Assembly: GCA_965153355.1 (NCBI GenBank)
Contig: OZ231126.1
Coordinates: 4,898,001-4,962,000, forward strand
DNA length: 64,000 nt
Direction: 5' to 3'
Origin: Flaccisagitta enflata
Lineage: Eukaryota
In this document: one piece after another, positions 2,175 to 29,545 of the stretch
Position numbering within the stretch: the first letter of the stretch is position 1
Layout: each line of letters starts with the position of its first letter
Made by a program: the position numbers and the translations under genes
The notes under the pieces: generated by a model
What the model saw: only the letters and a program-made list of their open reading frames with translations
Database searches by the model: none
Told to the model about the DNA's origin: nothing

Positions 2175-2492
<318 letters not shown>

Positions 2493-3519: not shown

Positions 3520-4669
<1,150 letters not shown>

Positions 4670-4904
4670 AAAAACAGACAAACAGCAAGACCACACCTCA
4701 AGTTTTTGACGGTTACGGCTAAATCATTTTTAGTTGCGTACACGTAACTGTATAAGAGGCTCTGTCCATCCGTCCGTCCGTAATGATCGAGTCGAAAAGT
4801 CAACAAGCGCTTTAGATATTTTTTGTTTATACTTGTGGGTATGTCGGAGGGGGGGTGGATGGAGGCACACCCGTCCGCAACGATATTGTGACCACACGTC
4901 CCTT

Positions 4905-8479: not shown

Positions 8480-9330
<851 letters not shown>

Positions 9331-9779: not shown

Positions 9780-11035
9780 GGCCATTCGGGGACTGTAACT
9801 GGCCAAAAATAGGCCAAAAAGTGCCCAAAAAAGCCAAAAACCCCATTTTTTCTCAAAAAATGAGTGTTATTTAAGAATTTCTTGCCAAACACACTCAATT
9901 AGGTCAGAATAAGGACAAATGTACTCATTGAGAGCTAAGGACAAATGTACTCATTGAGAGCTTTTAGTACTGCTATGGGGGTAATAACAGGCCAAAAACA
10001 GGCCAAAAATGGCCCAAAATGGCCAAAATCGGCATTTTCAACATATAGATCATTGTTATCCGGAATGTTTTCACTTATCTCACCCAATCCAGTCAGAACT
10101 AGACTAAATATACTCATTGACAGCTTTAAACTGATATACGGGGGCCACAACAGGCAAAAAACAGGCCAAAAACGGCCCCAGATGGTCAAAATCGGCATTT
10201 TCATCTCATGTATCATTGTTATTCAGGATTTTTTCGCCAATCTCACTCAATGCAGTCAGAACAAGGTCAGATATACTCATCGAGAACTTGGAAACTGACA
10301 CTGGGGGCTTCAAGAGCACAAAAACAGGCCAAAAATGTCCTAAAAGCGCCAAAATCGTTGCGCCATCTGATAGATTATTGTTATTCAGAATTTTTTCGCC
10401 AATCTTACTTCCAATGCAACAGAACTAGGTACAATACAGTCACAGAAAGCTGGAAACTGATATCCAAAGCATAACAGAAGCCAAAATACAGGCCAAAAAT
10501 GGCCTAAAATGGCCAAAAAAGACATTTTCATCTAAATTATTAAAGCTCTTTGGAATTTTTTTTAAATCTCACTCAATCCAGTCAGAATTAGGACAAAAAT
10601 ACTCATCGAGAGCTTTGAGCACTGATTCCGAGGTCATAACAGGCCAAAAACAGGCCAAAAATGGGCTAAAATGGCCAATTCTGCATTTTCATCAGGCAGA
10701 CTATTGCTTTTTCAGAATTTTTAGCCAATCTCACTAACAACACAATAAAATAATGGGTCAAATATACTCATTGAGAGCTGTGAAAACTGATACCGGGGCC
10801 ATAGCAGGCCAAAAACAGACCAAAATTGGGCTGAAATGGCCAAAATCTGCATTTCCATGAAATAGATCATCGTTAATTAGAACTTTTTTTGCGTATCTCA
10901 CTCCATCAATTAAGAACTAGATCAAATATACTCCTTGACAGCTTTGGATGCTAAAACTTGGGTCCTAATAGGCCAAAAACAGGTCAAAAAATGGCCTAGA
11001 ATATCCTAAATCTGCCTTTCCTTCACGCTAGACTA
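9780..11035 (+). repeat. ~165-bp tandem repeat array (about 7 diverged units)
   Basis: Recurring 'aggccaaaaacaggccaaaaatgg...ccaatctcactcaa...aaatatactcattgagagc'. Resumes at ~12985-13225 and reappears inverted at ~16070-16430. Confidence 0.85.
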
Positions 11036-11044: not shown

Positions 11045-14000
11045 AGTTACAGCGGTCCCAAAGGGGACAATGTCCTGTAGAACACAGGGAGACTTTTCGC
11101 TAATTTGTACGTATGCCTTCTCCCCCCCCAGCCTCGAGGCTCAAATCCCAGCGTCAAGCTAAAATCCGGACCTCAAGGCTGAAATCCCAGATTCAAGGCT
11201 TAAATCCCAGCCTTGAGGTTCAAATCCACAGCTCAGCGCTCAAGTCCAAGACTCAAGGCTCAAATCCCAGCCTCAAGTCTAAAATTCATCCCTATCTTCA
11301 AATCCCAGCCTCGAGACTCAAATCCTAACCTCAGGGCTCAAATTCCAGCCTTGAGGCTCTAATCCCAGCCTTAAGCCTCAAATCCCAGCCTTGAGGCTCA
11401 GATCCCAGCCTCGAGGCTCAAATTTCAGCCTAGAGGCGCAAATCCCAGCCTTGATGCTCAAAAACTCAATTGGGCAAAAGTCCCCCTGTGTTCTACAAGA
11501 CATCATGCCCTTTGAGGCCGCTGCCCTGCTACCCATCACCTACAATCACTTATAAACAAAGCAGGGCAAAGGGTATCGCTGACCACATATTGCCCTTGGG
11601 CAACTGGTTCAGAATCTTTAGGCCGCGTGCTACGCGTCTCTAAACCCTGCTATGTCGGTCCATTGGTTGGTTGGTTGGTCAGTCGGTTGGTCAGTCAGTC
11701 GGTTATCCCTTGGCAGCGCTCTGAGTGGGACAAAGTCCTGTAGAACAGGACTTTTGTTCATCCGTTTGCACATTGGCCCTCCCCTCATAAGGCCCCTCAG
11801 GCCTCAAATCTGGCCTCTGAGACCTCGGGACCTGACCTCTCAAGCTCCCAATCCACTCTCTCAGGCCTCAAATCCAGCATCTCACACCTCAAATCTGGCC
11901 TCTCACGCCTCAAATCTGGCCTCTCACGCCTCAAATCCAACTTCTCAGGCCTCAAGCCTGGCCTCTCAGGCCTTAAATTAGGCTTCTCAGGCCTCAAATC
12001 AAAATTCTAGGCTCTCAAACCTGGGCCTCTCAGGCCTGCAAACAGCCTCAAGCTATGTAGCTTGAGACTTGCTCAGGCTTCCAATCAGCTCTCAACCTTG
12101 CTAGCCTTATTCCAGCCAAGCCCCAGCCACCCACCAAGCTTCCAGTTGGCATTCTCCAGCCTTACATCAGCCTTCTGAGACCAGGCCAGGGTTCTTGCAA
12201 GCCAGCCAACCCTTCAGCATCTACAGATGGACGGATGGACGAACGAACGGATCAACAAAAGTCCCCCTGTGTTCTACAGGATCATGCCCTCGGGCCGCTG
12301 CCTTGTCTCCCCACCCCAATTTACAATCACAACCAAAGCAGGGCAACAGGTATCGCTGACCACACATTGCCCTTGGGCAACCTGTTACTTTTTCGGCGTT
12401 TTTGAGCTTTTGGGCAGCGGCTCCGAAGAACACAATCTGTCCATCCATCCGTATGACCGTCCATCCATCCCCCCCCTGCCCCATCGGCTTTGTCTCCTTT
12501 GGGGCCTATTCTGACCTAATTTCTGCCAAATAGCCCAAATCTAAGCAATGGGGCCGTTCGGCCAAAAAGCCTAAAAATGGCCTAAATCCAAGCATAATGG
12601 CTCAAACTAAGGAAATGCCCAAATTCGGTCTAAATTCATTGGCTGTCATTATTTGTTTAGCTAAAGGCCATTTTACTCAGATTTTGTATATTGCTTGGAT
12701 TTAAGCATTTGGAACAGATGGATGTATGGATGGGACATACTGATGGATGGATGGACAGATTCCCCCTGTATTCTACACTACTTTGTCCCCTTCGGGGCCG
12801 CTGCCCTGCTCCCCTCAACTTAAATCACACACTACTCAAGCAGGGCACGGGTACCGCTGACCACTTACTGCCTTTGGGCTGCTACTTCAACATACGGCTC
12901 CTGCCCAGATGCCGTAGCGACCTTCTCTAGCACTGCTCCCCCCCACCCGCACGCAACTAGGGTTGCCGTGAATCCGGCCTTGTTTTTGCCTCTCCATCCA
13001 TCCAGTCAGAAATAGGTCAAACATATTCCTTGAGGGCCTTAAAAACTGATACCAGGGTTATAACTGGCCCAAAACAGGCCTCAGATGGCCCAAATTTGCA
13101 TTTTATCAAATTGATCAATATGATTTGGAATTTTTTAGCCAATCTCACTCAATCCGATCAGAACTAGGTCAAATGTACTCCTAAAGAGCTTTGGAAACTG
13201 ATACCCGGGCCGAAACAGGCCAAAAGCATCAGATGGTCAGCAGTACCCCTGCCCTGCCTAAATAGGTTGTGCATGAAGTTGAAGGCAGTGGCCCTGAAGG
13301 GGTTGATAACCTATGCTTTCATACATATGGGGAATTCTCTCCTCCTTCTTCTTCTGGCCAACTCTCCTTCTCCATCCTCCCTCAAATCCCAGTCTGAGGT
13401 CCAAATTCCAGCCTGAAACAAATCCCAGTCTTGAAGCCTAACTCCCAGCCTCGAGTACTCACTAGCCGCAAAAGCGTTAGATGGTCGGGGGCGGCACCCA
13501 TGCCCTGCTGAGTAGGTTGCGGCTTGAAGTTGAAGGGGGCATAGCAGCGGCCCCAAAGGGGGTCGATGACCCAGTGCTTCACACATGGGGGATTTTCCTC
13601 CTCCTCCTCCATCTTCTTCTCCATCCCTCCCCCCTCACAAATCCCAGTCTTGAGGCCTAATTCAGCCCCGAGGCCAAAATCGATCTCCGAGGCCAAAAAT
13701 CCCGCCGAGACTCCAATCTCAGCCCCTGGGCACTCCAAAATCCTAGCTCTGCTCGAGATTTAAGCATCAAGGCTGGGATCTGGCCTGGACAGAGTTTCTG
13801 GGACCCCGAGGCTGGATTGGCTTGAGGCTTGTATTTGGGCCTGAGGCTAGGATTTGGGCCTGAGGCTAGGATTTGGGCCTCAAGGCTGGAATTCTGGGCC
13901 CCTGAGATCAGGATTTTTGGGCCTCAAGACTGGAATTTAGGCCTTGAGACTGGGATTTGAGGGGGAGAAGAAGAAGAAGGTGGAGGAGGAGGAGAAAATC

Positions 14001-16065
14001 ATGAAAATCGTGAAAGCATAGGTCATCGACCCTTTTGGGGCCGCTGCCCAAAATGGCCAGCCTGAAGGCCTGCAAATCCCAGCTCAAGGCCCAGATTCTA
14101 GCCTCAAGGCCCAGATCCTAGCCTCAAGGCCCAAATCCTAGCCTCAATGCCCAAATTCTAGTCTCAAGGCCCAACTCCTAGCTTCAAGGCTCAGATCCTA
14201 GCCTCAAGGCCCAAATCTTAGTTGAGTGCGGGTGGACAGGGGCTGTATTTGAGGTCACTTGATCATATGGGCAGGAGCAGTGAGGCCATAGACCAAACAA
14301 AGTAAAAATAGCTGCGAAAGCATTAGATGGGCAGTGGTACCTGTGCCCTGCCTAAAGGGGTTGATGACCTATGCTTTCACACATATGGGAATTTTCCTTC
14401 TCCTCCCTCCTTCTTCCTCCCTCCTTCATCTCTTCCCCCTCTCAAATCCCGGCCCCAAGGCTAAGATTCACTCGAGGCCCAAATCCCAGTTTTTGAGGCC
14501 CAAACCCAGCCTCCCAAGGCCATTTTCCCAAGAGGCCCAGATGCCAACTTCCAGGCTGAGATTTGGGCCTTGAGACTGGGATCTGGATCTCAGGACTAGG
14601 ATTTGGGCCTCAAGACTGGGATTCGGGCCTCAAGACTGGATTTTGGGCCTCAAGACTGGAATTTGGGCTTCCAGACTGGAATTTAAGCCTACAGACAGGA
14701 ATTTTCTTTTCTATGATTGAACTAGTCATCCAAGGATCGCACATAATCATACCCGATGCCCTGCTTGGGTGATGGCAAAGCAGTGGAGTGAGAGCAGGGC
14801 AGCGGCCCCCAAAGGGCCGATGTCCTGCAGGACACAGGAGGGAATTTCCATACGTCCTATGGGGGAATATAGCAGGCCTAAGAGGTACTTGAGATGGGGT
14901 TTGAGGTCTGAGGAGGTTTATGCCTAAAGATTAGATTTGAGGTCTGGGGCAGGCTTTAGGCCATGGGGGCAGATTTGAGTCCTGGAGGGCCGATTTGAGG
15001 CCTAGAATGCTGATTTGAGGTCTGGAGAGCGGATTGGCCTTGAGGGCAGATTTGAGGCCTGGAGGGCTGATTTGAGGTCTGGAGAGCGGATTTGAGGCCC
15101 GGAGAGCTGATTTGAGGCCATGAGAGCTGATTTGAGGGCTTAGAGGGCCTAAATCAGGCCTGAGAGTGAGGATATGAGGCCTCGATGGCCAAATGGGGAC
15201 TTGACGGACGGAAGGGACGGACGGACGGACGGGATCGGCGGGAAATTCCCCCTGTGTCCTTACAGGACATCGGCCCCTTTGGGGCCGCTGCCCAAAAAAG
15301 CATCAAACACGCTGGGCTGTTATTTTGAGCCTTGAGGGTGGATTTGAGCCTTGAGGCTGGGATTTGAGCCAAGGGTTTGAATCTGGAGCCTGGGCTGGGA
15401 TTTGAGCTTTGAGGTTGAGATTTTGTATTTTGAGGCTAGGATTTGCCTCAAGACTAGGATTTAAGCTTCAAGGCTGGGATTTTGTACCAAGGCTGGATTT
15501 GAGCCTCAAGACTGGGATTTGCTTCGAGACTGAGATTTGAGCCTGAGACTGCGACGAGTTGAGGCTGGGACTTGAGCCCAAGGCTAGGGATTTGCCTCAA
15601 GGTTGGGATTTGAGCTGAGGCTGGGATTTGAGCCCAAGGCTAGGATTGAGCCTGGGGGTACATAGAAGAAGCCAGCGAGAAATTCTGTGTGAAAGCACAG
15701 GTCATCGGCCCCTTTCTCGTCATGCCCAAAAAGGGAAAAAAATCAGAAGTTAAATAGTGTAGAGCAGTTGGTAGAGTTGCTTGATCACCGAGTTGGATGA
15801 CCGACTGAGTTTGAAGCAAAAGGAAGAGCGATCCATTAGTAACTTGGTATTTGAATTTGCACGTAGTTGGCTCAACAGCTTTCTTGTCCATTCGTACATA
15901 CACTCAAAATTCCCTACCCTCCCTGCGCCTCTTGAGCCCTGATCCTGCCCTCCCTAGCCTTCATTCAGCCCTCCTGTTAGTCCATTTGTCCGTCCATCTG
16001 TCTATCCATCCCCCTCAGGCTCTCTCAGGTCTGAGATCCGCCGACTCAGGCCTGAAATTCCCAAA
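11045..16065. mobile_element. Nested cluster of non-autonomous inverted-repeat elements carrying 20-21-bp minisatellites (Helentron/DINE-like inferred)
   Basis: Repeated ~45-bp inverted motif gggcagcggccccaaaggg..gatgtcctgtagaacacagggg around arrays of ctgggatttgagccttgagg or tttgaggcctgagagggctga, followed by a tail aagcagggca.gggtaccgctgacca. Confidence 0.75.
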
Positions 16066-16069: not shown

Positions 16070-16430
16070 CATGATAATTTGAACAACAAACATTTTTACC
16101 TGATGAAAATGCCAATTTTGGCCATTTGAGGTCATTTTTTGCCTGCTTTTGGCCTGCTGTGACCCTGGTATCAGTGTCCAGAGATCTCAGTTAGTATCTT
16201 TGTCCTAGTTCTGACTAGATTGAGTGAGATCTCCACAAAAAAATTCGAACAATTATGATATTTGAGATGCAGGTTGACATCACTTAGGCCATTTTAGCCC
16301 ACCCTGGGCCTGTTATGGCCCCGGTATCAGTTTTCACAGCTCTCAATGAGTATATTTGACCTACCCTGACTGAAATTAGTGAGATTGGCTAAAAAATTCT
16401 GAATAACAATGATCTGCCCAATGAAAATGC
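16070..16430 (-). repeat. Inverted copy of the ~165-bp repeat, truncated at ~16430
   Basis: Reverse complement of units at ~10560-10860; stops mid-unit after 'aatgaaaatgca'. Confidence 0.85.
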
Positions 16431-19400
16431 ATCAACGACTTGTCATCAATCATCGAATCACCAAAATACCGTCAGTGGGGCGCATCCGTATCCAGCGCCG
16501 AACTGTTATCATCAGAATCCGCCAATTCAACAATCGCCGCCGACATATCTTCCGCAGGTTTCGTATCAAACGACACCGCAGCATCAGGCGTCGTCAACGC
16601 AAGCATCGCCGCCAAATTACCACGCAGCGCCGACTTGCAACCAAGTTTTTGCGAACAGCGGCGTTCACCAGTCACCGCAAAATCTGCAATTAAAGAAGAT
16701 TCAAAATAGACAAATCGACGTTTATCATCAATCACATCAACAACAAGCTAACATCATTCCTAACTGGGGAAATCAGACAAATCCTCCCTTCAGCCAAAAC
16801 TTTGGATTCCATCCAAACACGCCGCAAGACGCAAACTTCACTCGAACGCCGACTCAGTCTGCAGTCAACCCATTCGCGGCCGTCAGCCCATTAAACCAAC
16901 AAATCGGCAGCCAACAATCTCAGCGAGATCATAGCAGCCAATTGCAAACCACCGCCCAATTGCAAACAAACTTAACATATTTGCAACTGGAAGCAACAAA
17001 TCGACGCCAGCAATTGGAATTGGACCGGAAGATAAAAGAGTGTGACAACCTCACCGGCATCCTCGCGAACGCCAAATACAAAGAATCACAGGACAAGAAC
17101 GTCATTGACAATCAGAAACAACAATTAGAAAGTCAAAAACAACAGTCGGCAGAATACCGGGAGAAAGTTGAAATCGCTGAACAATCTCATCATCAAGAAC
17201 GATTATCCCATCAAGCGGCACTCAGAAAAATCATACGGCTGGAAGAAGAACTGAAATTGGCAAAAGAAGAAATAAAGGCGATCAAAGGAAAACAAACACA
17301 AGAAAAAACTCGATTGCAACAAAATCACGACGTCCAGATCGCAAATAGCAACGAAGAATTGCGCATCAAAATCGCAGAGCTGGAATCTGCGAAACGAGAC
17401 TTAGCCGATATTAAGTCTGAAGGCCAAGAAGAATTCAATACAAGATTAATTGAAAAAGAAACGGAACATAAAACAGAATTGATAAAGATCAAATCGACAT
17501 ACCAAGAAGCACTCAACAAGAGAGTCGAAGACTTGCGGCTGCAATACGAAGAACGCATCGAGATCCTCAAAGGCCGAATCAACACCCACGATAAACATTA
17601 CGATAATTGGGTCATTCAAATCCGAGCCTTGGAATCTGAGACAGAGAAAGCCAAAGAGAATTACGAAAAACAAATCGACGGCTTAAAATCGGACGTTAAA
17701 TCACTTCAAACCCAACAAGGACGCTACGAACAATTACTAGAAATCGCCAACAAACGGTGCAAAATTCTCACGCTTCAAGTGACATACTCTGAAAAACTTG
17801 AAGCTGAAGCAAAAACAAAGACCGAAGAATATAACAACGAATTAATCAAAACAAAGGCCGAACTGCACAAAGCAAGATTGGAATTATTCACCATCCAAAA
17901 TCAACACCAAGAGAGCCCAAAAACGCCACTGCGGGATGAAGAAGATGGAAACGAAAATCGAGGCGACGACGACGACGACAACGACGTCAACGACGACGAC
18001 GAAGTCGCACGGGCCAACGCAAGAACTTATAAACCAACAATTGCCGCAAACTCATTTGGAAACGACATGTCAACCCCAGTCAGCGACGACAGAGCAACAG
18101 ACTCAACAATCGCAGCTGTCGGCGCTCGCAGCACCATTTCAAATGACGTCACAAAAAGTATCACAGCAGCAGCAGCAACGATATCAGTTGCAACAGTCAA
18201 CGCAAACACGGCCGTTGACGTGGTGGGAACGAATACAACAAGCGGCGCGAATACCACCGCCATTACTTCCGCCGCCACCCCTTCCACCACCACCACTTCC
18301 GCCGCTGCCACCGCCGACATTAAACCCAACATTCATCTCACCGATGGTTCCACCGGAGACGCTCCGACCGAGGATTATAACGAGTCGCCATCAACATCAG
18401 TCACCGAAGGTCGGGAAACGAATTACAACAAGATGGTCGTCGATGCCATCCTACGAGCGTCAACCACAATCGACGTCGAAGCCATCAAAGACATCCTTAG
18501 AACAACCACCGACGGAAACAAATTTCCAATCACCACTGCTTACACTGGAAATAAGACAACCTACAAACTCGGAAGCGTCGGTTACGGCATTCTCAACGGG
18601 GCAATCACACCAACAGGAAACACCGTCAGTCCAGCCTTCACGAGAGCTTGCAAAAAGCAATGGATCATCAATTGTCTCAATGGCAATGAAATCATCGGGG
18701 ATATCAGAGACAAAAATAAAATCACCGAACTCATGCGTCATCACGGGATCAGAATTATCACTACCCAGCAAGGACGACGAATCAATGAGCGCGGACACGT
18801 CATGGTCGATGACATCACCTACAACGACGACGTCAACGGAGACCCAGATTGGCAACCAGACAACGAGGACACAGACACAAAATATGAAAAAGACTCCACA
18901 AGCGCCGTTTTCGAATCCGGGCCGGTCAAGAAAACAACAATGGCAAGAAAACTGCAGCAGAATAGCAGAAACAAGCAAACTGGCGCAATCACCTCAGCTG
19001 CTGCAAGTCAATCTGAGCGGATCAGTGCTAATGAGTCCGCACCAGTTGGAAAAACTGAACCAATTGATGCAGAATTGCATCATCATCAGCCCAATGCCGA
19101 GCAGATTGACAAACCAACAACAAAGATGCCGAAGTTGTCCTTCAAAAGAAAGAAAAATGCCACCGGAAAGTGCGGCAAACGGAAGCAAGCAAATATCGAT
19201 TCAATCAGAGAGAAGGCCATCGATCCCGACAACGACGCAAATGACACATCCTCAACGAGAAAATCCGCAGCAGAGCCAGCAGCGGCAGCAACAGCATCAG
19301 CAGCTACCACAACAGATGCCGCAACAGCAGGAGCAGCAACATCAGCAAATGGCGCCCCAGACAGCGGATCTTCAATATGGTCAAAATTCAAACAATTGGG

Positions 19401-22400
19401 AGGCGCCAAACAAAATCCTTCAAGCAGCAACCTCGAAGCCAATAATGAAGGAATCAACCTCGAAATGGCCAAACATAGAATCAAACAAAATGACGACGCA
19501 TGGCTGGCAGACCAAATCTACAAACAAGAAGGAGAAAGGCGACGCAGCCCGAGGGCGAATGCGGGAAAGAAATATCAGCGACACTGATAAAATGCAAAGA
19601 CTTGACCAAGATTTGAGCAACGACGTAGCACACTACAGTAGAGTAGCAAACTCAATCAGCAACATAGAAAAGCGGATAAAAGAGTTGGACGACGTGCTGC
19701 AAGAGGCGACTCAGAACATTGTAAATATTTCTCGTCCTTCACAAAACTTCATGATGTCGAGATTGGCAGAAGCAAAAAGATGTAGGAATGAAGCGGCTTT
19801 GATCAAGAAGAAAGGAAGCATCAATGATCCAGATGTTCAAGCACGCATCACTGCCCTTCTAGCGAAATCAGCTGATATCATCGAAGAACTCATCAGCGAC
19901 AATCCACGAACAGGATTTAACCACCATGAAGCTCAAACAGCCATGTTCAACATATCAATAAATTCAATGGTTTCAAACGAACTGATGCGTCAAATAGTCA
20001 AGGAAATGACAAATGCCTTCGAATATTTGCTGCAAACCATTGGAAGAACAATGGGCAATCTGAAAAAGGCAATTTCAGATGAAAAATTGGAGAAATGTCT
20101 TCCTCATGAACAGACATTCGACCAATTGATACGACAAATGCAAATTAACATGGACATCGTCAACGCGATGATGGAAAAGGTCACAGCCTCAGGCGACGAC
20201 GTCCGGCGACTACAGGCGACAGCGGAATTGAGCATAGAATTGAGCCAAGCTGAAAGACCAACACACCGAGTAATGGAATTTGTAGAGATCGGCAGAATAT
20301 TGGCGGAAAAATGCGGCGTTGCATTATTGACAACCGCTTCAGCAGCATCAACAAGATTTGAACAAGCAACCCAGAGATTGTTCAACACAAACGAATTGTC
20401 ACGCGATTCTACATTCCATCGAATCATTAGTCAAACTCACATCGAGCTACCATGCTTCAACAACGTTACTTACCCTGAAAATACCTTCGGGAATACAAGA
20501 ATCCCATACAACGTCAATGACCTCGTGACAATTCATGAATCCCTCACAAGAGAATACAACGCATTGAGAGTCGCATATAAGTCGTTGATGGGAATATGCG
20601 AAATACAGCTAAGAAGAATTGACGACATGAGCATTCAAATACTCACTATGCAACAATGGTTCCTAGATTATGTTGCAAAAATCAGAGAGATCAATCTCTG
20701 CAACGATCTTCTCCTTTTGACCGAACAGTCAAAGAGGATAAAGTATGGGAAACGGTTTGACGAAGTCATCACTCTCATGGACATCCACCACAACGAATTG
20801 GAAGTCACTTGCAACGAGATTCCACATCCTCGACCGGAAAGATTGGACCGAATTGCCACAATCAACGCCACTACATTGCAATCCATCGCGGAAGTAATCG
20901 CCAATCACATTAACCTCAACATCGGCGCAACTAAGAGTGAACAACAATACGAGGATTATTTCATCTCATTGGCCTCAGTGCCAGAATTGGACAAAAGCAT
21001 ATTGACAATAGTAGGCGAATCACCAACGGCAAGCAATTACGTAACGCCGACAGAGAGCCAAGACGGTTCTGATACAAGACTATCACCCAGATCACCATCA
21101 AACGAGCCTCGAGAAAAATCAAAATCGCCATCTCAATACATGCGAAAGGAAAGTAAATCTCCAAACGGCGTCAGAAACACTAGCGCACCATTGTCGCACA
21201 AATCAAGGATAACTGAATCGCCAAAAACCACGACAACGGTGACTCAACAACAGCAACAAATTAAACAACAAGCTCCAACACAAAAAGGAAGAAAAAAGAA
21301 AAAACCAGCTCGAAAAATAAAGGCTAAAGGGAATCAAGCGGCCCAACCAATTCAAACAACAGCGCCAAATAACAAAAACAACGGCTCCAATAGGTCAAGA
21401 AAGAAAACAACTAAAGCAGAAACAGACGAGGAGACGATGCAACGGCAAAGATTATACGGAGCCATCACTCAAATAAGTGGCAATGCGGGCATTTTGACCC
21501 CAAAGGAGACAACGGGGGTAATAGCCCATGTGAAAGCGGCAAATGGTGACGCAGAGGATGAAGACAACGAGATATGGTTCAGCATTGAGACGGGCGACAA
21601 CTTCCAAAACGACCAATGGAGAACAAAAGCCAGGCTGTACAGAGAGACTCTCATCCGCGAAAGTGGAGGAGATCCTAAGGCATTTGATAAAGAAGAAGAA
21701 TACGCCCCAATATGGAACCCTCGAACAGGCAGATTAATCGCTAGAATATACAAAAGGCGTATAGTAGCCGAGCTGAACACACCCGATTATCAAATCAACA
21801 TTAGCGACGCCATGAATGGCATGTCTCCGAATGAAGTGTGCGCAATAAAAAGTTTAATCGAATTTGGACGCTCAGAGAAGCAGCATCAACGCGCGATGGA
21901 ACGCGCGGGACCGGCAGATAGGGCAAGACTCGTTTTGGAACGACGCCAACTGACAGATTGCGTACAAGAGCAATTACAACTCATATCACCAGATTCGGGC
22001 TCAAACATTTCAAACGCCTTCGCAAAAATCCAATGGGATACAGACCAAGGCACTTCATCTACTGATAAAACACCCGAAGACTCAATATCAAATTGCCCAC
22101 AAGGAAGCGTCATTGAAGGCGGCAATAGAATGCTTCTACCAGAAAGAGAGCAAGACTTCAAGCAAGAAAGAAGCAATTACACATCAGAACAAATGCAAGT
22201 AATACGGTATTATCAGCAGCAGGCCGAAAGACTTGAAGAAGAGCTCAAGAAAACAATGGAACCAGATATCTCGGACGAAGAAACAGAATCAATCAGAGTG
22301 TTATACAAGGCCTTGCAACAGCAATACAGGTCATCAATGGAACTGGCAAAGAATGACCTACGCATCTTCGACACACTCCTCGACGTCTCAATAATGCATG

Positions 22401-23505
22401 ATGATGACCCAAGGAGAGAAGCAAAAATCGCAAAATATGAAACGGCAGAAGCAGAGCACGCACAAGCAAGAGCCACACTTGATGATTGTATAAGAGTCAC
22501 AACGGAAATGATGAAAAAGATCGAATCATTTAACAAAAAGAAGATCAACGACAAAGTCAAAAGATACAACAAAGGAAGATGCGGCAGGAAAGCGGCAATG
22601 AAATGGATAAAAAGACGCACAAAAGAAAGAGATGAAATGGAAAGTGATAGACAAAAGGTGGAACAAACAATAATGAGCAGCATCACCAAATTACCTCCAG
22701 GCTTCTCCGCGAAGATAAATGTGAGAAGATCAAACGAGGACGGAGACACGGATGAAGAGGAGGAGGAAATTCCATTCGAAGAGTACTCTGACGACGACGA
22801 TGAGACGCAACGCATTTTCACCATTTCCGCAATATCGTCAGATAGGATGCCAGTCATGGAAGAAGAGGCGATCGAATATCACCCAACTCCACCAACGTTT
22901 CCAGTAACACCTCCTCCGCCGGAAGATCCCAGCGATTCATCATCCGACGAATATCCATTAGTCCCGCCATATTTAGCATCTCCTCCACCGGAATACAGTG
23001 ACGAGTATGAAGAAGAAATGCCGAGTCCACCGACTTTACTCAGAAGCGCCGGAACATCACCACATCCAATTATGGATGAAGACAGTTCAATCATTGAAAT
23101 CATAGAGACGGTCGAAAACGATGAAAATCAGCCGAGACGAGTAATCTTCTCAGCGTCAGCGGCGCCTCCAGAATATACTCCAACTGAAGATATTTGGAAG
23201 AAAGCAGTAATGGACATCATTGGGATGAAACAATCCGGCAATAAGCGCAAAAATGAAAACACTCTGAAAGAGATACTAAATGAATTGAAAAGAAAACATG
23301 ACCACGAAAATGACGGTGAATGCGAGAAATGTGAATTGACAGCTGAAGACATGATGCTTGAAATAGAACAACCATCCGAGGGAGAATCAGCAGCAGAAAT
23401 AACATCAAAACTGATCAAAAACATAAAGAAAGCAAAGAAAGCAATCAAGCATACACATACAAAGAGAGTCTCATCATTCACACAAACTGACAAACTGACA
23501 AACTC
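16431..23505 (+). mobile_element. Intronless two-ORF block, probably a fragment of an unclassified retroelement or endogenous virus
   Basis: Strong A>T skew, CpG-rich, and free of introns, microsatellites and MITE insertions over 7 kb, with abrupt junctions on both sides. No RT, integrase or capsid motif recognised. Confidence 0.55.
16432..19587 (+). CDS. Orphan ORF1, 5'-truncated (~1050 codons): Q/P/H-rich N-terminus, long coiled coil, Thr/Ala-rich linker, small globular segment, basic tail
   Basis: The frame stays open upstream of the track start (16942) back to a TAA at 16390-16392 inside the flanking repeat. First in-frame ATG is only at 18067. E/K/Q/L-rich heptad-like region at ~16960-17900. 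Confidence 0.8.
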   Translation, partial: STTCHQSSNHQNTVSGAHPYPAPNCYHQNPPIQQSPPTYLPQVSYQTTPQHQASSTQASPPNYHAAPTCNQVFANSGVHQSPQNLQLKKIQNRQIDVYHQSHQQQANIIPNWGNQTNPPFSQNFGFHPNTPQDANFTRTPTQSAVNPFAAVSPLNQQIGSQQSQRDHSSQLQTTAQLQTNLTYLQLEATNRRQQLELDRKIKECDNLTGILANAKYKESQDKNVIDNQKQQLESQKQQSAEYREKVEIAEQSHHQERLSHQAALRKIIRLEEELKLAKEEIKAIKGKQTQEKTRLQQNHDVQIANSNEELRIKIAELESAKRDLADIKSEGQEEFNTRLIEKETEHKTELIKIKSTYQEALNKRVEDLRLQYEERIEILKGRINTHDKHYDNWVIQIRALESETEKAKENYEKQIDGLKSDVKSLQTQQGRYEQLLEIANKRCKILTLQVTYSEKLEAEAKTKTEEYNNELIKTKAELHKARLELFTIQNQHQESPKTPLRDEEDGNENRGDDDDDNDVNDDDEVARANARTYKPTIAANSFGNDMSTPVSDDRATDSTIAAVGARSTISNDVTKSITAAAATISVATVNANTAVDVVGTNTTSGANTTAITSAATPSTTTTSAAATADIKPNIHLTDGSTGDAPTEDYNESPSTSVTEGRETNYNKMVVDAILRASTTIDVEAIKDILRTTTDGNKFPITTAYTGNKTTYKLGSVGYGILNGAITPTGNTVSPAFTRACKKQWIINCLNGNEIIGDIRDKNKITELMRHHGIRIITTQQGRRINERGHVMVDDITYNDDVNGDPDWQPDNEDTDTKYEKDSTSAVFESGPVKKTTMARKLQQNSRNKQTGAITSAAASQSERISANESAPVGKTEPIDAELHHHQPNAEQIDKPTTKMPKLSFKRKKNATGKCGKRKQANIDSIREKAIDPDNDANDTSSTRKSAAEPAAAATASAATTTDAATAGAATSANGAPDSGSSIWSKFKQLGGAKQNPSSSNLEANNEGINLEMAKHRIKQNDDAWLADQIYKQEGERRRSPRANAGKKYQRH

Positions 23506-23602
23506 CGATGTATCGCAGCTTGGAGCCTGGGGACTTCACAGCCAATTCCCAGCACCAAACTCCTCCCGGATTGGCCTGGCAATTTGCCGGAAGTTAATCT
23601 GA
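19592..23602 (+). CDS. Orphan ORF2 (~1336 aa from ATG 19592; frame open from ATG 17936, 1888 aa), helical with a Pro/acidic C-terminal region, 3'-truncated
   Basis: The ATG lies 4 nt after the ORF1 stop (cacTGAtaaaATGcaa). Folded-looking sequence starts at MQRLDQDLSND. The last ~30 codons read into a Tc1 relic. Confidence 0.8.
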   Translation: MQRLDQDLSNDVAHYSRVANSISNIEKRIKELDDVLQEATQNIVNISRPSQNFMMSRLAEAKRCRNEAALIKKKGSINDPDVQARITALLAKSADIIEELISDNPRTGFNHHEAQTAMFNISINSMVSNELMRQIVKEMTNAFEYLLQTIGRTMGNLKKAISDEKLEKCLPHEQTFDQLIRQMQINMDIVNAMMEKVTASGDDVRRLQATAELSIELSQAERPTHRVMEFVEIGRILAEKCGVALLTTASAASTRFEQATQRLFNTNELSRDSTFHRIISQTHIELPCFNNVTYPENTFGNTRIPYNVNDLVTIHESLTREYNALRVAYKSLMGICEIQLRRIDDMSIQILTMQQWFLDYVAKIREINLCNDLLLLTEQSKRIKYGKRFDEVITLMDIHHNELEVTCNEIPHPRPERLDRIATINATTLQSIAEVIANHINLNIGATKSEQQYEDYFISLASVPELDKSILTIVGESPTASNYVTPTESQDGSDTRLSPRSPSNEPREKSKSPSQYMRKESKSPNGVRNTSAPLSHKSRITESPKTTTTVTQQQQQIKQQAPTQKGRKKKKPARKIKAKGNQAAQPIQTTAPNNKNNGSNRSRKKTTKAETDEETMQRQRLYGAITQISGNAGILTPKETTGVIAHVKAANGDAEDEDNEIWFSIETGDNFQNDQWRTKARLYRETLIRESGGDPKAFDKEEEYAPIWNPRTGRLIARIYKRRIVAELNTPDYQINISDAMNGMSPNEVCAIKSLIEFGRSEKQHQRAMERAGPADRARLVLERRQLTDCVQEQLQLISPDSGSNISNAFAKIQWDTDQGTSSTDKTPEDSISNCPQGSVIEGGNRMLLPEREQDFKQERSNYTSEQMQVIRYYQQQAERLEEELKKTMEPDISDEETESIRVLYKALQQQYRSSMELAKNDLRIFDTLLDVSIMHDDDPRREAKIAKYETAEAEHAQARATLDDCIRVTTEMMKKIESFNKKKINDKVKRYNKGRCGRKAAMKWIKRRTKERDEMESDRQKVEQTIMSSITKLPPGFSAKINVRRSNEDGDTDEEEEEIPFEEYSDDDDETQRIFTISAISSDRMPVMEEEAIEYHPTPPTFPVTPPPPEDPSDSSSDEYPLVPPYLASPPPEYSDEYEEEMPSPPTLLRSAGTSPHPIMDEDSSIIEIIETVENDENQPRRVIFSASAAPPEYTPTEDIWKKAVMDIIGMKQSGNKRKNENTLKEILNELKRKHDHENDGECEKCELTAEDMMLEIEQPSEGESAAEITSKLIKNIKKAKKAIKHTHTKRVSSFTQTDKLTNSDVSQLGAWGLHSQFPAPNSSRIGLAICRKLI

Positions 23603-23768
23603 TAACAAATTTTTGGTCGCAGATGAAGAATATGCAGCAACAGGAATACGCTACTTCAATTGAGGGTCTGAAAAGTCACGCCATCTTACCTAAAAGCCTT
23701 GTACAAATTGCTGCTGGCGAGAATGCAGGCAGTGATTAGCTAGGAGGGACACCATACCAACTATTGAG
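23505..23768 (+). pseudogene. Decayed Tc1-like transposase C-terminus
   Basis: LLPDWPGNLPEVNLITNFWSQMKNMQQQEYATSIEGLK matches the Tc1 WPxxSPDLNPIENxW motif. After a frameshift, PSYLKALYKLLLARMQAVIS*EGHHTNY* matches the RxxAVIxxxGxxTKY end. Confidence 0.85.
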
Positions 23769-23984
23769 AACCATTTGGACATGTTTTTGTATCATTCTAG
23801 GCGATATATGAACTGACACTCATTTTGATGCTAAACTTATTTCTAAGGTAGTAGAGTCAGTAATCAAATGTACAATCCAGACTAATTTTTCATCAGTTGA
23901 TTCCCCTTGAACTTCATGATGATCATGTGGCAGAAAGTAAATCTTTAAATATAGGCAACATCCCAATTCTAGAAAACGCTTTAC

Positions 23985-24144
23985 CTGTAATGGTTGAATA
24001 ATGCTGAGACAATGAGAGATGAAATGGTGAACATGAAGGCTGTGTCAAACTGGAAAATCATTCTTGTTGGGCATTTGTGATAGATGGTGGAAAAAATCCC
24101 CTCAAATACAAAACTCCAGGCGATGGCATATGCGAGGGAGTAAT
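23985..24144 (-). CDS. SID-1/SIDT-family gene, last visible exon
   Basis: ttttag|..|gtaaag; DYSLAYAIAWSFVFEGIFSTIYHKCPTRMIFQFDTAFMF matches the SID-1 hallmark EGxxSxxYHxCP...FQFDTxFM. Confidence 0.93.
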
Positions 24145-24235
24145 CTAAAAGGAGTAATGAAATATGCTCATCATACTGATGCTAGAAGTTTGAATCTACA
24201 GTTTAAGAAAATGTCATTCATATGTGTGACCTTAC

Positions 24236-24452
24236 CATAATATCCAAAATGCCCCTTATTGTAGCAGTAGGCCTCTCTGAATCCAAATGCAAGGAAGAAG
24301 ACTAATCCATGGACCACATAGGGAATGTTGGAGGACAGAAGATTAAAGGGGAAATCTTCATAACTGGTAGATGGAATGTAGCATCGTTCGTTATAGAAGC
24401 AAATGTCTCGGTTACCACTTTCAATCATCTGCTGCCAGTTACCATGCACCAC
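24236..24452 (-). CDS. SID-1/SIDT-family gene exon
   Basis: tttag|..|gtaag; VVHGNWQQMIESGNRDICFYNERCYIP...FNLLSSNIPYVVHGLVF matches SIDT GNxDxCxYNxxC...FN...SNxxY; phase 1 joins the next exon. Confidence 0.93.
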
Positions 24453-24556: not shown

Positions 24557-26964
24557 CAGTGTCTTCAATTACGGTTGACTTATTCTAAATAAGCGCTGTG
24601 TCTCTCATACTCATCCCTCTGACTTTTTCTTTTTTTCCTCCTTTAGTATATTGTTTGACTTTTTTTGCATCAAAATTTCAAGGGTCCAAGTCAAATAGTT
24701 TGTCCGTAGCATTAATTTGAAGTACCTTATGTATACATGGATAAGACTGAAAAAATCGATTTTTCTCTGAAACTTTTTTCCTCTTGTAACTTATCTTTTT
24801 AACGGTTTGAACTACAGATGCAAGATTAGTACAAGATTGTGTGATGAAGTTTCAGGGAAGGAAATGAAAAACAGTTTTTATCACCATTATTTAGTAATCA
24901 TGTGAGAAATTATTTGTTTGATGAGGTCTTTGTCAAGTTGATTTCCAGGTCAAAACCTTATTCATGCACGACAATCAGAATTGCAGAACAAGGCATAACA
25001 ATGTCACCCCCAGTCTTAATTAGGTAATCAGAAGCAGTGATGCAAAGGTTATCTTAGGAATTGGGCAGGAATAGTGATTCAAAATCCTCTCATTGATGAC
25101 AAGTCTCCATTGGGGAATTTTGAACCAGTGGACAGATGGATGGAAAGAGACAGATGGATAGGAAGACAGAGAGCAAATGGACTGACTTACTGACTGAAAC
25201 TGATCAAGGTAATTGCAAAAAACTACATCAAATCATTTTTAACTTGAGACCTATCTCGCATCTGTAACACAATCCATTTTGAAATGAGAGAAATTAGAAA
25301 AAAAAGGCATTGATAAACAATCAACTTTTTTCAGTCAAAACCATTAATACATGAAATACTTCAAATTAGTGCTACAGACAAACTAGTCGTCTTAGACCCT
25401 TGAAATTTTGATACAAAAAAACGTCAAACAATATACTGAAGGAGGAAAAAAAGAAGAATACAGAGTGATGACCATGAGAGGCTTGACGGTATGTTTTCCC
25501 CCTCATGTGCTCAAAACCCCTGTACCCGATCGTTTTTGATTATTTTTATAATATTACTACCTAGAACTAAAGAGATTTGGGATTTTTGATCCATTTTAGG
25601 GACCGCGAGTTCCATTTATTTATCACCACTCCAAGGTGGTTGTGGTGAAAATGTTGAAATTTGGTCACTTTGGGCTCAAAATTGGGCCACTTTGGTTTGG
25701 AAATTTGACCCAAAATCTGTGAGATTATGAAACTAGAGCTCAAGAGCTAACCAGTGGTGCAATCCGCATGTTGCCATCATTTTTTGTTAAGATTTGAGAG
25801 CTTTTCAAAGATGGAAGGGTATGAGGGTTATTTTACCAATTGAATTTGGTGGTCAATTTTGACATTTTTTACATTTTTTGTTATATCTCCACTTTGGATA
25901 GACAAATCTGGATGAAATTGGTGACCAAATTGAAGAGTTTTTGATGCTCTAACTGAATCTGGTAAAATTTTTGATCAATATGACCCTCAAAATTTTTGGG
26001 AGACTCTAGAAGCAGGTGCTAAAAAGTGATTTTTTTCACCATTTTGGCTACTTTGGTCAAAAATTTGGGCACTTCCAAGATAGAAAATGACAAAAAATCA
26101 GTGGGCAAATTAAACTACTGTTCAAGATCTAACAAATGGTGCAATCGGCATGTCGATATGTTGAAGCATATAGATTTGGCAGAGCTTTTAGGCTCATAAT
26201 GACCAAAAAATGTCATTTTATCAAACCCACTGATCTTTGAAGCTTTGCCAAATCTATATGCTTTAACCTATTGACATGCCGATTGCACCATTGGTTAGAT
26301 CTTGAACAGTAGTTTAATTTGCCCACTGATTTTTTGTCATTTTCTATCTCAGAAGTGCCCAAATTTTTGACCAAAGTAGCCAAAATGGCGAAAAAATCAC
26401 TTTAGCACCTGCTTGTAGAGTCTCCCAAAAACAGGTCATATCAATCCAAATTTTACCAGATTCAGTTAGAGCATCAAAACTCTTCAATTTGGTCACCAAT
26501 TTCATCCAGATTTGTCCATCCAAAGTGAAATATATCAAAAATTGTAAAAAAGGTCAAAATTGACCACCAAATTCATTGGTAAAATAACCCTCATACCCTT
26601 CCATCTTTGAAAAGCTCTCAAATCTTAACAAAAATGATAGCAACATGCAGATTGCACCACTGGTTAGCTCTGGTTTCATAATCTCACAGATTCATCAAAC
26701 CAAAGTGGCCCGATTTCGAGCCCAAAGTGACCAAATTTCAACACTTACACCACAACCACCTTGGAGTGGTGATAAATAAATGGAACTCGCGGTCCCTAAA
26801 ATGGATCAAAAATCCCAAATCTCTCTAGTTCTAGGTAGTAATATTATAAAAATAATCAAAAAAGATCGGGTACATGGGTTTTGAGCACATGAGGGGGAAA
26901 ACATACCGTCAAATGAGAGGCACACCATCTATTTAGAATAAGTCAACCGTAATTGAAGACCCTG
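24557..26964. mobile_element. Non-autonomous Tc1/mariner-type element with ~130-bp TIRs
   Basis: TA|cagtgtcttcaattacggttgac ... gtcaaccgtaattgaagaccctg|TA; the right TIR is split by the foldback insertion. Confidence 0.85.
25483..26912. mobile_element. Foldback (near-complete palindrome, ~700-bp arms), MULE-like
   Basis: ttgacggtatgttttccccctc ... gagggggaaaacataccgtcaa, centre at ~26190-26240; 9-bp TSD atgagaggc (25474) / atgagaggg (26913). Confidence 0.9.
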
Positions 26965-28829: not shown

Positions 28830-29127
28830 ATTGAACAAGGCCCAATAGGCCAAAGATGCGTCCAGTCTTGGTTTATATGATCTTTCTTTATACGGTCTTG
28901 GTTTGTATGGTCTTTCTTTATATGGTCTTACATTATACGGTATTACTTTACATGGTATGATGATGACGATGATGATGAGGTTGATGAATCTCTTGATGAC
29001 GACGACGATAATGACGAGGATGATGATAACGATTATGATGATGACGATGGTGATGATGATAGTGATGATAATGATGATGATGACAATGGCGATGATAATG
29101 ACGATGACAATGACAATGACGATTACA

Positions 29128-29225
<98 letters not shown>

Positions 29226-29256
29226 AATGACGATGACAATGACGATGACGATTACA

Positions 29257-29324
<68 letters not shown>

Positions 29325-29545
29325 AATGACGATGACAATGACAATGACGATTACAATGATGATGATGAAGATGATGATAAAGATGATGATGGTGATGATG
29401 ATTATGTCAACGATGATGATTACGGTGATGATGATGATGATGACGATATCGATATTGTGACGAATTTTGCAATATGGACCGACTGACCAACCAACCAACG
29501 GACCTACAAGGCCAGTTATAGAGATGCGAGGACGCATCTAGAAAT
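28830..29545. mobile_element. DINE/Helentron-like non-autonomous element containing an (ATG)n array
   Basis: ~500-bp degenerate (ATG)n, then (ACCA)n, then the terminal hairpin tatagagatgcgaggacgcatcta. The same terminus occurs at ~1731, ~43645 and ~49099. Confidence 0.7.

What the first reader, a model, noticed from the sequence alone, without database searches (positions are those of the whole stretch)
16431..23505. Orphan 7-kb intronless two-ORF block: candidate unclassified giant retroelement or endogenous virus
Seen: ~7.1 kb of continuous one-strand coding sequence (ORF1 ~1050 codons, ORF2 at least 1300 codons), strongly A>T skewed and CpG-rich. It has no introns and no microsatellite or MITE insertions, whereas the flanks are interrupted every few hundred bp and the neighbouring SID-1-like gene has exons of 240 nt or less. 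Known: A-rich sense strands and tightly coupled intronless ORFs are typical of retroelements and some viruses; giant multi-ORF retroelements with coiled-coil ORFs exist (e.g. bdelloid Terminons). Inference: this is a young foreign unit, possibly the non-enzymatic part of a much larger element. I recognise no RT, protease, integrase, CCHC knuckle or capsid motif.
Basis: partly seen in the sequence, partly recalled or inferred. Interest (0 to 1): 0.88.

Follow-up and report, generated by a model that had tools for sequence, protein, structure and literature searches.

The report
Truncated copy of orphan two-gene repeat
This 7-kb block is a young, silent copy, cut short at both ends, of a multi-copy pair of back-to-back genes found only in one marine animal and in marine plankton samples; the two long, mostly helical proteins resemble nothing known, so it looks like a selfish repeat but cannot yet be called a retroelement or a virus.

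Summary
Two same-strand ORFs fill 16432-23491 and are A-rich and not CpG-depleted (o/e 1.13 against 0.33-0.80 in the flanks). The block lies beside SID-1-like exons on the other strand.

It is a fragment. Compared with its only relatives, which are unnamed marine-metagenome proteins, ORF1 lacks its first 223 codons and its start codon, and ORF2 lacks its last ~216 codons. Both breaks abut unrelated high-copy repeats.

The family looks multi-copy. Unitig depth is about 3-6x that of the SID-1 exons. Other copies are truncated or frameshifted. Differences between copies are mostly synonymous (24 of 35).

Host polyA RNA gave no genuine reads. A marine metatranscriptome holds contigs 95-97% identical.

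No RT, protease, integrase, transposase, capsid, LTR, TIR or ribozyme was found. ORF2 is predicted all-helical and ORF1 is coiled-coil plus disordered. Relatives' contigs (up to 8.6 kb) suggest a unit of just these two ORFs.

The 4-nt gap between the ORF1 stop and the ORF2 ATG is conserved in a lineage with 34%/61% protein identity. The ORF2 frame also stays stop-free for 582 codons over ORF1 (about 10-18 stops expected).

Best reading: a dead copy of an unclassified, enzyme-less, bicistronic repeat family. Whether it is mobile remains unproven.

The parts
16105..16431 (.). High-copy repeat unit of about 310 nt that abuts the 5' break of the block. It is not part of the family.
   Evidence: summed depth about 20,700 in X1; back-joints 16414->16105 show that the unit also occurs in tandem elsewhere; one contig leaves the window sequence at 16431; inverted copies at 13013-13228 (pairs I6, I10, I16).
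16432..19587 (+). ORF1 remnant, corresponding to codons 224-1275 of the 1275-aa relative P0007, ending at stop TGA 19585-19587. The start codon and first 223 codons are missing. Layout: Q/P/N-rich segment with two PPxY motifs; proline-free, charged stretch at residues 167-508 (about 16891-17916), likely coiled coil; acidic and S/T/A-rich linkers; conserved block of about 135 aa (about 18415-18822); basic tail and a conserved C-terminal motif (19459-19584).
   Evidence: 91% identity to P0007 from 16432; 34% to P0008; alignment; motifs; 342-aa proline-free stretch; first in-frame Met at codon 559.
17846..19591 (+). ORF2 reading frame (+1 relative to ORF1), stop-free for 582 codons where it overlaps the 3' 55% of ORF1. 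This is a candidate dual-coding or frame-kept-open region.
   Evidence: 0 stops against a mean of 9.7 (minimum 3) in 2000 codon-order shuffles and 18.1 (minimum 6) in 2000 synonymous resamplings; none of the 21 NTA/NTG codons is followed by the base that would make a stop (9.8 expected), while the rest of ORF1 (15 observed, 13.4 expected) and ORF2 (80 observed, 80.3 expected) behave as expected. Against sequence constraint: 13 of 15 listed variants change the +1-frame residue.
19585..19594 (+). ORF1 stop, 4-nt spacer and ORF2 start (TGA TAAA ATG). The TAA directly after the TGA is a second in-frame ORF1 stop.
   Evidence: sequence; relatives' ORF2 starts at the same Met; the same 4-nt spacing deduced for the P0034/P0009 lineage; 0 of 2000 shuffles compatible.
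19592..23491 (+). ORF2 remnant, corresponding to residues 2-1350 of the 1566-aa relative P0003. The last ~216 codons are missing. Predicted all-alpha: N-terminal helical domain 1-460, disordered 456-672, helical 674-810, confident helical bundle 850-1032, then disordered with a conserved PPxY.
   Evidence: (60% identity over 1361 columns).
23492..23602 (+). Read-through tail: the ORF2 frame runs on into the flanking repeat until a fortuitous stop. It is not homologous to relatives.
23502..24002 (+). High-copy repeat at the 3' break. A frame at 23491-23736 weakly resembles the C-terminal end of a DDE_3 (Tc1/mariner-type) transposase.
   Evidence: X1 summed depth about 9,000; an X3 contig enters at 23502; DDE_3 E 0.074, below the curated cut-off.
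23984..24452 (-). Two exons of a SID-1-like host gene (context, and the single-copy depth reference).
   Evidence: PF13965: E 7e-11 for profile positions 309-354; E 6e-8 for 240-297; X1 unitig depth 85-146.

Best explanation
The block is a recently formed, transcriptionally silent copy, truncated at both the 5' and 3' ends, of a lineage-restricted, multi-copy bicistronic unit.

The intact unit is about 8.6 kb and appears to carry only two genes:
- ORF1 (about 1275 aa): a disordered N-terminus bearing PPxY motifs, a coiled coil of about 340 aa, a small conserved domain and a basic tail.
- ORF2 (about 1566 aa): all-helical domains joined by disordered linkers.

The ORF2 ATG sits 4 nt after the ORF1 stop. 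The family evolves under protein-level selection and spawns truncated and frameshifted copies. I read it as a selfish repeat that encodes structural, scaffold-type proteins and no polymerase, integrase or transposase. It would therefore be copied by machinery supplied in trans, or by a route not yet known.

Shown: the truncation, relatives confined to marine metagenomes, selection on the proteins, the lack of known domains, and the conserved 4-nt ORF1/ORF2 junction. Suggested by unitig depth rather than measured: multi-copy status.
Inferred: the unit size, translation of ORF2 by termination-reinitiation, mobility, and dependence on trans-acting machinery.
For: Truncation:
- Homology to P0007 covers residues 224-1275 starting at 16432; homology to P0003 covers residues 2-1350 ending at 23491. 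The missing ends appear nowhere in the 64 kb at E<=10.
- There is no in-frame ATG before ORF1 codon 559.
- Both breaks abut unrelated high-copy repeats.

Multi-copy:
- In organism A's DNA run X1 the block is broken into unitigs of 229-341 nt with depth 224-601, against 85-146 for the SID-1 exons. Summed bin depths are 527-2190. Many variant contigs are present.

Decayed sister copies:
- P0039 has frameshifted stretches, P0032 diverges after residue ~183, and P0030 is an ORF1 tail only.

Selection:
- Of the 35 variant sites listed inside the ORFs, 24 are at third codon positions and 24 are synonymous (p=2e-5).

Youth:
- No stop in 2351 codons, with P(no stop) 0.03 at 1% neutral divergence.
- CpG o/e 1.13 against 0.33-0.80 in the flanks.

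Narrow family:
- 21 of 1.84 billion representative proteins hit at E<=1e-3. All are unnamed, and all those whose source I looked up come from marine-metagenome collections; most are fragments (sources).

Conserved bicistronic junction:
- The same ORF2 Met is used in P0003, P0009 and P0042.
- The tail of P0034 and the head of P0009 can be encoded by one DNA stretch in +1 register with a 4-nt spacer (0 of 2000 shuffles), and both lie on a 5605-nt contig.

Expression:
- 0 genuine reads among 12.2 million polyA reads of organism A. The 10 reads laid all sit on the CGA repeat and have loose ends.
- Metatranscriptome X11 has contigs 95-97% identical, one of which spans the ORF1/ORF2 junction (19366-19937).

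Unit size:
- P0003-type ORF2 (4.7 kb) lies on contigs of 8494 and 8646 nt.
Against: - No hallmark of any transposition mechanism was found: no RT, EN, IN, transposase or Rep, no LTR or TIR around the block, and no TSD or poly(A), which cannot be assessed on a doubly truncated copy.
- Unitig depth is only a proxy for copy number, and the tool itself warns against reading it that way.
- I could not read any full-length copy or its flanks. The 8.6-kb unit size and the absence of further genes therefore rest on contig lengths alone.
- Helical and disordered proteins without enzymes are equally typical of fast-evolving host structural genes.
- The 90%-identity lineage yielded ORF2 only as short fragments, so intact ORF2 in that lineage is not shown.
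Confidence: 0.5

Rival explanations
1. An amplified, lineage-specific host gene pair (operon-like or ampliconic, for example germline-restricted structural proteins). The window would hold a recent pseudogene fragment made by segmental duplication or retrocopying.
For: - Neither protein has a mobility enzyme or a viral domain.
- Both are coiled-coil, helical and disordered, like many cytoskeletal or nuclear scaffold proteins.
- Differences between copies show purifying selection.
- Transcripts occur in marine metatranscriptomes (P0010 comes from a transcript catalogue).
- Silence in one polyA sample fits tissue- or sex-limited expression.
Against: - The unit is intronless over 7 kb, while the only neighbouring gene I checked has exons of at most 93 codons.
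- CpG o/e is about twice that of the surrounding DNA.
- Four-fold sites are A-rich (38-46%), unlike the BTB exon in the same window (A 10%); the two small SID-1 exons are also A-rich.
- There are several differently truncated or frameshifted copies.
- No orthologue with any name or domain appears among 1.84 billion representatives.
- In metagenome X3 the block is far deeper (30-95 per bin) than the SID-1 exons (0.5).
Confidence: 0.25
2. A fragment of an endogenous virus, or of a much larger element (giant retroelement, Polinton-like or herpes/nimavirus-like insert), whose enzymes lie outside the window.
For: - Tightly packed, intronless ORFs on one strand, with a 4-nt gap and a long frame overlap.
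- An A-rich sense strand at synonymous sites.
- PPxY motifs in both proteins, one conserved in P0003. That such motifs act as late domains in viral budding proteins is recalled, not tested here.
- Both ends of this copy are missing, so neighbouring genes cannot be excluded from the window itself.
Against: - No relative in IMG/VR: 364 pattern hits, none confirmed.
- Foldseek against predicted viral structures gave only TM 0.05-0.10 with rmsd 24-94 A, which is meaningless.
- No Pfam viral, RT, IN, PR or capsid family in ORF1, ORF2, P0003 or P0007.
- No hammerhead or other Rfam family.
- No LTR or TIR.
- No enzyme-like ORF among the 10 other long, non-repetitive ORFs of the window that I scanned.
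- Relatives' contigs stop at about 8.5-8.6 kb in two assemblies.
Confidence: 0.15
3. An assembly artefact or a contaminant contig misjoined to host DNA.
For: - Both borders coincide with high-copy repeats, where assemblers misjoin.
- No contig spanning either border appeared among the pieces the tool listed.
- Only 0.68 and 0.55 of the block's sampled 31-mers are in organism A's two DNA runs.
Against: - Exact-match unitigs of the block, with 0 differences over 245-295 nt, are present at high depth in organism A's own DNA run.
- The family is also present in 8 marine-metagenome runs from 2 studies at shares of 0.21-0.39.
- The coding frames are intact and match independent metagenome proteins.
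Confidence: 0.03

Closest known systems
LINE-1-type non-LTR retrotransposons (bicistronic ORF1/ORF2)
   Same: - Two same-strand ORFs on one transcript-sized unit with a very short gap between them.
- An ORF1 with a long coiled coil followed by a small conserved domain and a basic tail.
- An A-rich sense strand.
- Copies truncated at different 5' positions.
- Silence in the host alongside selection on the proteins.
That L1 ORF2 is translated by an unconventional termination-reinitiation mechanism is recalled (Alisch et al. 2006); I did not read that paper here.
   Different: - ORF2 has no reverse transcriptase and no endonuclease (Pfam 0 families).
- It is predicted all-helical.
- No CCHC motif was found, and no RRM could be modelled.
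- No 3' poly(A) can be observed because the 3' end is missing.
- At about 8.6 kb with a 1275-aa ORF1, the unit is outside the usual LINE layout.
Terminons / Penelope-like giant retroelements of bdelloid rotifers
   Same: [quoted passage not shown]
   Different: Terminons are defined by a PLE-type RT, reach up to 40 kb, are 5'-truncated by telomeric repeats, and end in a hammerhead ribozyme motif (same passages). Here there is no RT and no Rfam hammerhead. No telomeric repeat was seen by eye at the 5' junction. The unit appears to be about 8.6 kb.
Non-autonomous retroposed units and processed retrocopies mobilised in trans
   Same: Intronless copies of a transcript-sized unit without its own enzymes, with variable truncation and decay of the copies.
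   Different: Such units normally do not keep two long ORFs under purifying selection across lineages that differ by 40-66% in protein sequence. No poly(A) or TSD evidence is available here.

Membership tests
Non-LTR (LINE) retrotransposon | Reverse transcriptase domain in ORF2 | tested here: not met
   Pfam at E<=1: 0 families for window ORF2 and for the full-length relative P0003. The AF2 model is all-helical.
Non-LTR (LINE) retrotransposon | APE or REL endonuclease | tested here: not met
   No Pfam hit.
Non-LTR (LINE) retrotransposon | 3' poly(A) or simple-repeat tail and target-site duplication | not testable with these tools
   The 3' end of this copy is missing (homology ends at 23491), and no full-length genomic copy could be fetched.
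Non-LTR (LINE) retrotransposon | ORF1 with coiled coil plus nucleic-acid-binding domain (RRM/CTD or CCHC) | tested here: inconclusive
   A 342-aa proline-free, charged stretch fits a coiled coil. No CCHC motif was found. The conserved ~135-aa block gave an unusable model, pLDDT 46.
LTR retrotransposon / endogenous retrovirus | Flanking long terminal repeats | tested here: not met
   No direct-repeat family has copies on both sides of 16431-23505 within 12-28 kb. Caveat: this copy is truncated.
LTR retrotransposon / endogenous retrovirus | gag (CCHC), protease, RT/RNase H and integrase domains | tested here: not met
Penelope-like element / Terminon | PLE-type RT (with or without GIY-YIG), terminal hammerhead ribozyme, 5' truncation by telomeric repeats | tested here: not met
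   No RT or GIY-YIG. Rfam gathering scan of the whole window: 0 matches. No telomeric repeat was seen by eye at the 5' junction. Defining features taken from PMC6431247.
Cut-and-paste DNA transposon (e.g. Tc1/mariner) | Terminal inverted repeats and a DDE transposase belonging to the unit | tested here: not met
   No inverted pair brackets the block. The only DDE_3-like signal (E 0.074, below the cut-off) lies in the unrelated repeat beyond the 3' break.
Endogenous viral element | Sequence or fold homology to proteins of a known virus group | tested here: not met
   IMG/VR scan: none confirmed. BFVD Foldseek: TM <= 0.10. PDB: no hit with E < 0.2. Profile searches against PDB sequences returned only coiled-coil noise, E >= 0.026.
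Conserved cellular gene | Single copy with orthologues in other taxa or a known domain | tested here: not met
   21 hits among 1.84 billion representatives, none named. Depth is 3-6x the neighbouring exons. Protein Atlas: no usable hit.

The most novel reading that the evidence does not exclude
The family is a new class of enzyme-less, two-gene selfish element (or virus-like agent) of marine zooplankton. It would spread without its own polymerase. ORF2 would be expressed both by reinitiation 4 nt after the ORF1 stop and, through a 582-codon frame kept open across ORF1, as a longer overlapping or frameshift-fusion product.
Probability: 0.2. Interest if true: 0.8.

Novelty: new variant of a known kind. 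Interest (0 to 1): 0.5.

Why it matters
If the family is mobile, it would be a dispersed coding repeat that keeps two large structural genes under selection but carries none of the enzymes by which transposable elements are classified. Domain-based annotation cannot see such a unit.

The stop-free 582-codon overlap is one of the longer candidate dual-frame regions in a eukaryotic unit, and it can be tested directly.

If instead it is an amplified host gene pair, it is an ordinary fast-evolving orphan family. In that case the window copy is a pseudogene of little wider interest.

Tried and rejected
- Own-genome search: no genome is held for this window, so copy number and full-length copies could not be examined directly.
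- Related-loci scans with the ORF2 alignment: JGI metagenomes gave 323 pattern hits and IMG/VR gave 364, none confirmed.
- Protein Atlas, for ORF2 and for the ORF1 conserved block: no usable hit.
- A search seeded from the only distant relative, P0024 (23% identity to the ORF2 N-domain), found only itself.
- AF2 of the ORF1 conserved block with 3 sequences gave pLDDT 46 and is unusable, so no fold search was made on it.
- AF2 of ORF2 residues 1-1200 gave mean pLDDT 56.7. Foldseek against PDB found nothing below E 0.2, and the BFVD rows had TM <= 0.10. I rejected these as generic long-helix matches.
- Profile searches against PDB sequences returned only keratin, NEMO and myosin coiled-coil noise.
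- Rfam scan of the window: 0 matches.
- Pfam on 10 other long, non-repetitive ORFs of the window: 0 families.
- Whether the block lies inside a SID-1 intron: a regex and a hydrophobic-ORF screen for SID-1's 3' exons upstream of the block found nothing I could recognise, so this stays open.
- ORF1 against ORF2 by BLASTP: no similarity (best E 1.1), so they are not duplicates of each other.
- Two literature searches were aimed at comparators, not at this family. I make no claim about whether the family is in print. Supplementary files were not consulted.
- The ORF1 C-terminal 'DDAWLA..IY' motif reminded me of ubiquitin-binding MIU motifs. This is recalled only, was not tested, and carries no weight.
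- The earlier-findings look-ups by place and by sequence returned nothing.


Full report
WHAT IS THERE

On the + strand, a stop-to-stop ORF of 1064 codons runs 16393-19587, and a second frame is open from 17846 to 23602. ORF1 ends with TGA at 19585-19587, followed directly by TAA. Four bases after the TGA lies an ATG at 19592. This is the same methionine at which the relatives' ORF2 begins, so ORF2 is 1336 codons in this copy.

The block is A 38% and T 17%, with AT skew 0.31-0.40 against roughly 0 in most flanks. The A excess persists at four-fold degenerate sites, A 38-46% against T 13-16%. CpG o/e is 1.13 in the block and 0.33-0.80 in the other 4-kb bins.

Tandem Repeats Finder sees only a (CGA)13 run and two weak 15-nt coding repeats inside the block. 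The flanks are full of 19-20-nt arrays and microsatellites. Two exons of a SID-1-like gene lie on the opposite strand at 23984-24452.

THE COPY IS CUT AT BOTH ENDS

The word-indexed search of 5.8 billion proteins found one ORF2 relative, P0003 (1566 aa, 61% identity). It found two ORF1 relatives: P0007 (1275 aa, 90% identity) and P0008 (960 aa, 34% identity). All are unnamed and come from ENA metagenome assemblies.

TBLASTN of these proteins against the window gives two sharp boundaries:
- P0007 residues 224-1275 align from 16432.
- P0003 residues 2-1350 align up to 23491.

The missing 223 N-terminal codons of ORF1 and the ~216 C-terminal codons of ORF2 are nowhere in the 64 kb, even at E<=10. 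ORF1 has no in-frame ATG before codon 559.

On the left, the block abuts a high-copy unit of about 310 nt (16105-16431). Other copies of that unit occur in tandem elsewhere and in inverted orientation at 13.0-13.2 kb. On the right it abuts another high-copy repeat, entered by a metagenome contig at 23502. One frame of that repeat weakly resembles the C-terminus of a DDE_3 transposase (E 0.074, below the cut-off). No direct or inverted repeat brackets the block.

THE FAMILY LOOKS MULTI-COPY, PARTLY DECAYED AND UNDER SELECTION

No genome is held for this window, so I used public runs. In organism A's DNA run X1 the block is shattered into unitigs of 229-341 nt with depths of 224-601. Several of them match the window exactly. 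Unitigs over the neighbouring SID-1 exons have depths of 85-146. Summed depths per bin are 527-2190.

In metagenome X3 the block sits at 30-95 per bin, while the SID-1 bin is at 0.5. Unitig depth is not a copy count, and the tool warns about this. The pattern nevertheless indicates several near-identical copies plus diverged ones.

Sister copies in metagenomes are visibly damaged:
- P0039 carries two out-of-frame stretches.
- P0032 departs from ORF1 after residue ~183.
- P0030 is only the last 655 residues of ORF1.

Table 3 showed 40 variant rows and left 220 more unshown. Of the 40 shown, 35 lie in the ORFs. Of those 35, 24 are at third codon positions and 24 are synonymous (binomial p=2e-5). 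Copies therefore diverged while they were coding.

The window copy itself is young. About 5% of all possible substitutions would create a stop, so an unbroken 2351 codons has probability 0.03 at 1% neutral divergence. The undepleted CpG agrees with this.

EXPRESSION

In 12.2 million polyA RNA reads of organism A (about 6% of run X19), 10 reads were laid. All lie on the CGA repeat and have loose ends, so none is genuine.

A marine metatranscriptome (X11) holds contigs 95-97% identical to the block. One of them (19366-19937) crosses the ORF1/ORF2 junction. In that RNA run the block reaches depth about 3.7, against 5.7-7.6 for the flanking SINE-like repeat. In metagenome DNA (X3) the same repeat is about 500 times deeper than the block. 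DNA carry-over is therefore an unlikely source of the RNA signal. This is an inference across different samples.

WHAT THE PROTEINS ARE

- Pfam gives 0 families for both ORFs and for P0003, and only a sub-threshold coiled-coil arm for P0007.
- ORF1 has a Q/P/N-rich disordered region with two PPxY motifs (three in P0007). It then has a 342-residue proline-free, about 38% charged stretch that is probably a coiled coil, followed by acidic and S/T/A-rich linkers. Next come a block of about 135 residues conserved even in the 34% relative, a basic tail and a conserved C-terminal motif.
- The AF2 model of ORF2 residues 1-1200 (23-row alignment, mean pLDDT 56.7) is entirely helical. It has a confident bundle at 850-1032 and long disordered linkers.
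- Foldseek found nothing in the PDB below E 0.2. Against predicted viral structures it returned only rows with TM 0.05-0.10.
- The exhaustive HMMER scan of 1.84 billion representatives returned 21 proteins. Most are fragments from contigs of 0.5-1.8 kb. One is a distant relative of the ORF2 N-domain (P0024, 23% identity), which in turn finds only itself.
- No RT, protease, integrase, transposase, capsid, CCHC motif or ribozyme was found anywhere.

ARCHITECTURE OF THE UNIT

P0003-type ORF2 (4.7 kb) lies on contigs of 8494, 8646 and 6475 nt. ORF1 needs 2.9-3.8 kb. The unit is therefore probably about 8.6 kb and holds just these two genes. I could not read the contigs, so this is an inference.

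In a lineage with only 34% (ORF1) and 61% (ORF2) identity, P0034 and P0009 both lie on a 5605-nt contig. The last 18 codons plus stop of P0034 can be encoded by the same DNA as the first 18 residues of P0009 in +1 register. No shuffled control out of 2000 achieves this. The arrangement places the ORF2 ATG 4 nt after the ORF1 stop, exactly as in the window. Such a conserved stop-4nt-start junction points to coupled translation by termination-reinitiation. That mechanism is inferred, and the L1 precedent for it is recalled rather than read here.

AN UNEXPLAINED EXTRA: THE LONG FRAME OVERLAP

The ORF2 frame is stop-free for 582 codons upstream of its ATG, where it overlaps the 3' 55% of ORF1.
- Codon-order shuffles of that part of ORF1 give a mean of 9.7 stops in the +1 frame (minimum 3 in 2000).
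- Synonymous resampling gives a mean of 18.1 (minimum 6 in 2000).
- None of the 21 NTA/NTG codons in the overlap is followed by the base that would complete a stop (9.8 expected). The rest of ORF1 (15 observed, 13.4 expected) and ORF2 (80 observed, 80.3 expected) behave as expected.
- Yet 13 of the 15 listed variants in the overlap change the +1-frame residue. What is preserved is openness, not sequence.
- Relatives show the frame open at least 20 codons (P0009) and at least 45 codons (P0042) upstream of the ATG, as far as their gene calls can tell.

A long N-terminal extension, a frameshift fusion and a spliced fusion are all possible. None was tested.

VERDICT

The best-supported reading is that the block is a dead, recent fragment of an unclassified, enzyme-less, bicistronic repeat family of a marine animal (confidence 0.5).

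The rivals are an amplified host gene pair with pseudogene copies (0.25), a piece of a larger retroelement or endogenous virus (0.15), and an assembly artefact (0.03).

The block fails every tested defining feature of LINEs, LTR elements, Penelope-like elements and Terminons (features taken from PMC6431247, two passages), DNA transposons and known viruses. It resembles LINE-1 only in layout. The decisive test is a whole-assembly search for full-length copies and their ends, which I could not run.

Noticed in passing
window 25447-26400 (tRNA-like 25685-25776): An extremely abundant repeat: X1 summed depth reaches about 830,000 and X3 about 22,500. It contains a tRNA-His-like head found by ARAGORN, so it is probably a tRNA-derived SINE. 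Copies lie in inverted orientation at 25483-25699 and 26696-26912 (97% complementary).
   Followed up: partly
window 13650-15650: Dense arrays of 19-20-nt tandem repeats in both orientations (TRF rows; families D2-D5), upstream of the block. GC is about 51% and CpG o/e only 0.33.
   Followed up: no
window 9700-10900, 13013-13228, 16105-16431: Several copies, direct and inverted, of the ~310-nt repeat that forms the left border of the block. In organism A's reads the unit also occurs as a tandem array (back-joints 16414->16105).
   Followed up: partly
window 59233-60411 (+): A long exon encoding a BTB/POZ domain (Pfam E 4e-18), preceded by a G/S-rich low-complexity stretch. Its four-fold sites are C-rich and A-poor (A 10%), the opposite of the block.
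   Followed up: partly
window 23984-24452 (-): SID-1-like exons cover only profile positions 240-354 of 594. The exons for the C-terminal 40% should lie at lower coordinates, across the block, but I could not find them. The block may therefore sit in a SID-1 intron, or the gene may be disrupted.
   Followed up: partly
window 2100-4750, 8780-9000, 28900-29400, 38100-38400, 42070-42500: Very long microsatellites, including about 1.3 kb of (GA)n/(TC)n, (CA)n and trinucleotide runs. They produce spurious ORFs of 100-350 codons.
   Followed up: no
relatives P0024 / P0036 (unnamed metagenome proteins): A distant relative (23% identity) of the ORF2 N-terminal helical domain exists as an ~810-aa protein with its own disordered N-terminus. 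It lacks the rest of ORF2, so the domain occurs in at least one other protein context.
   Followed up: partly
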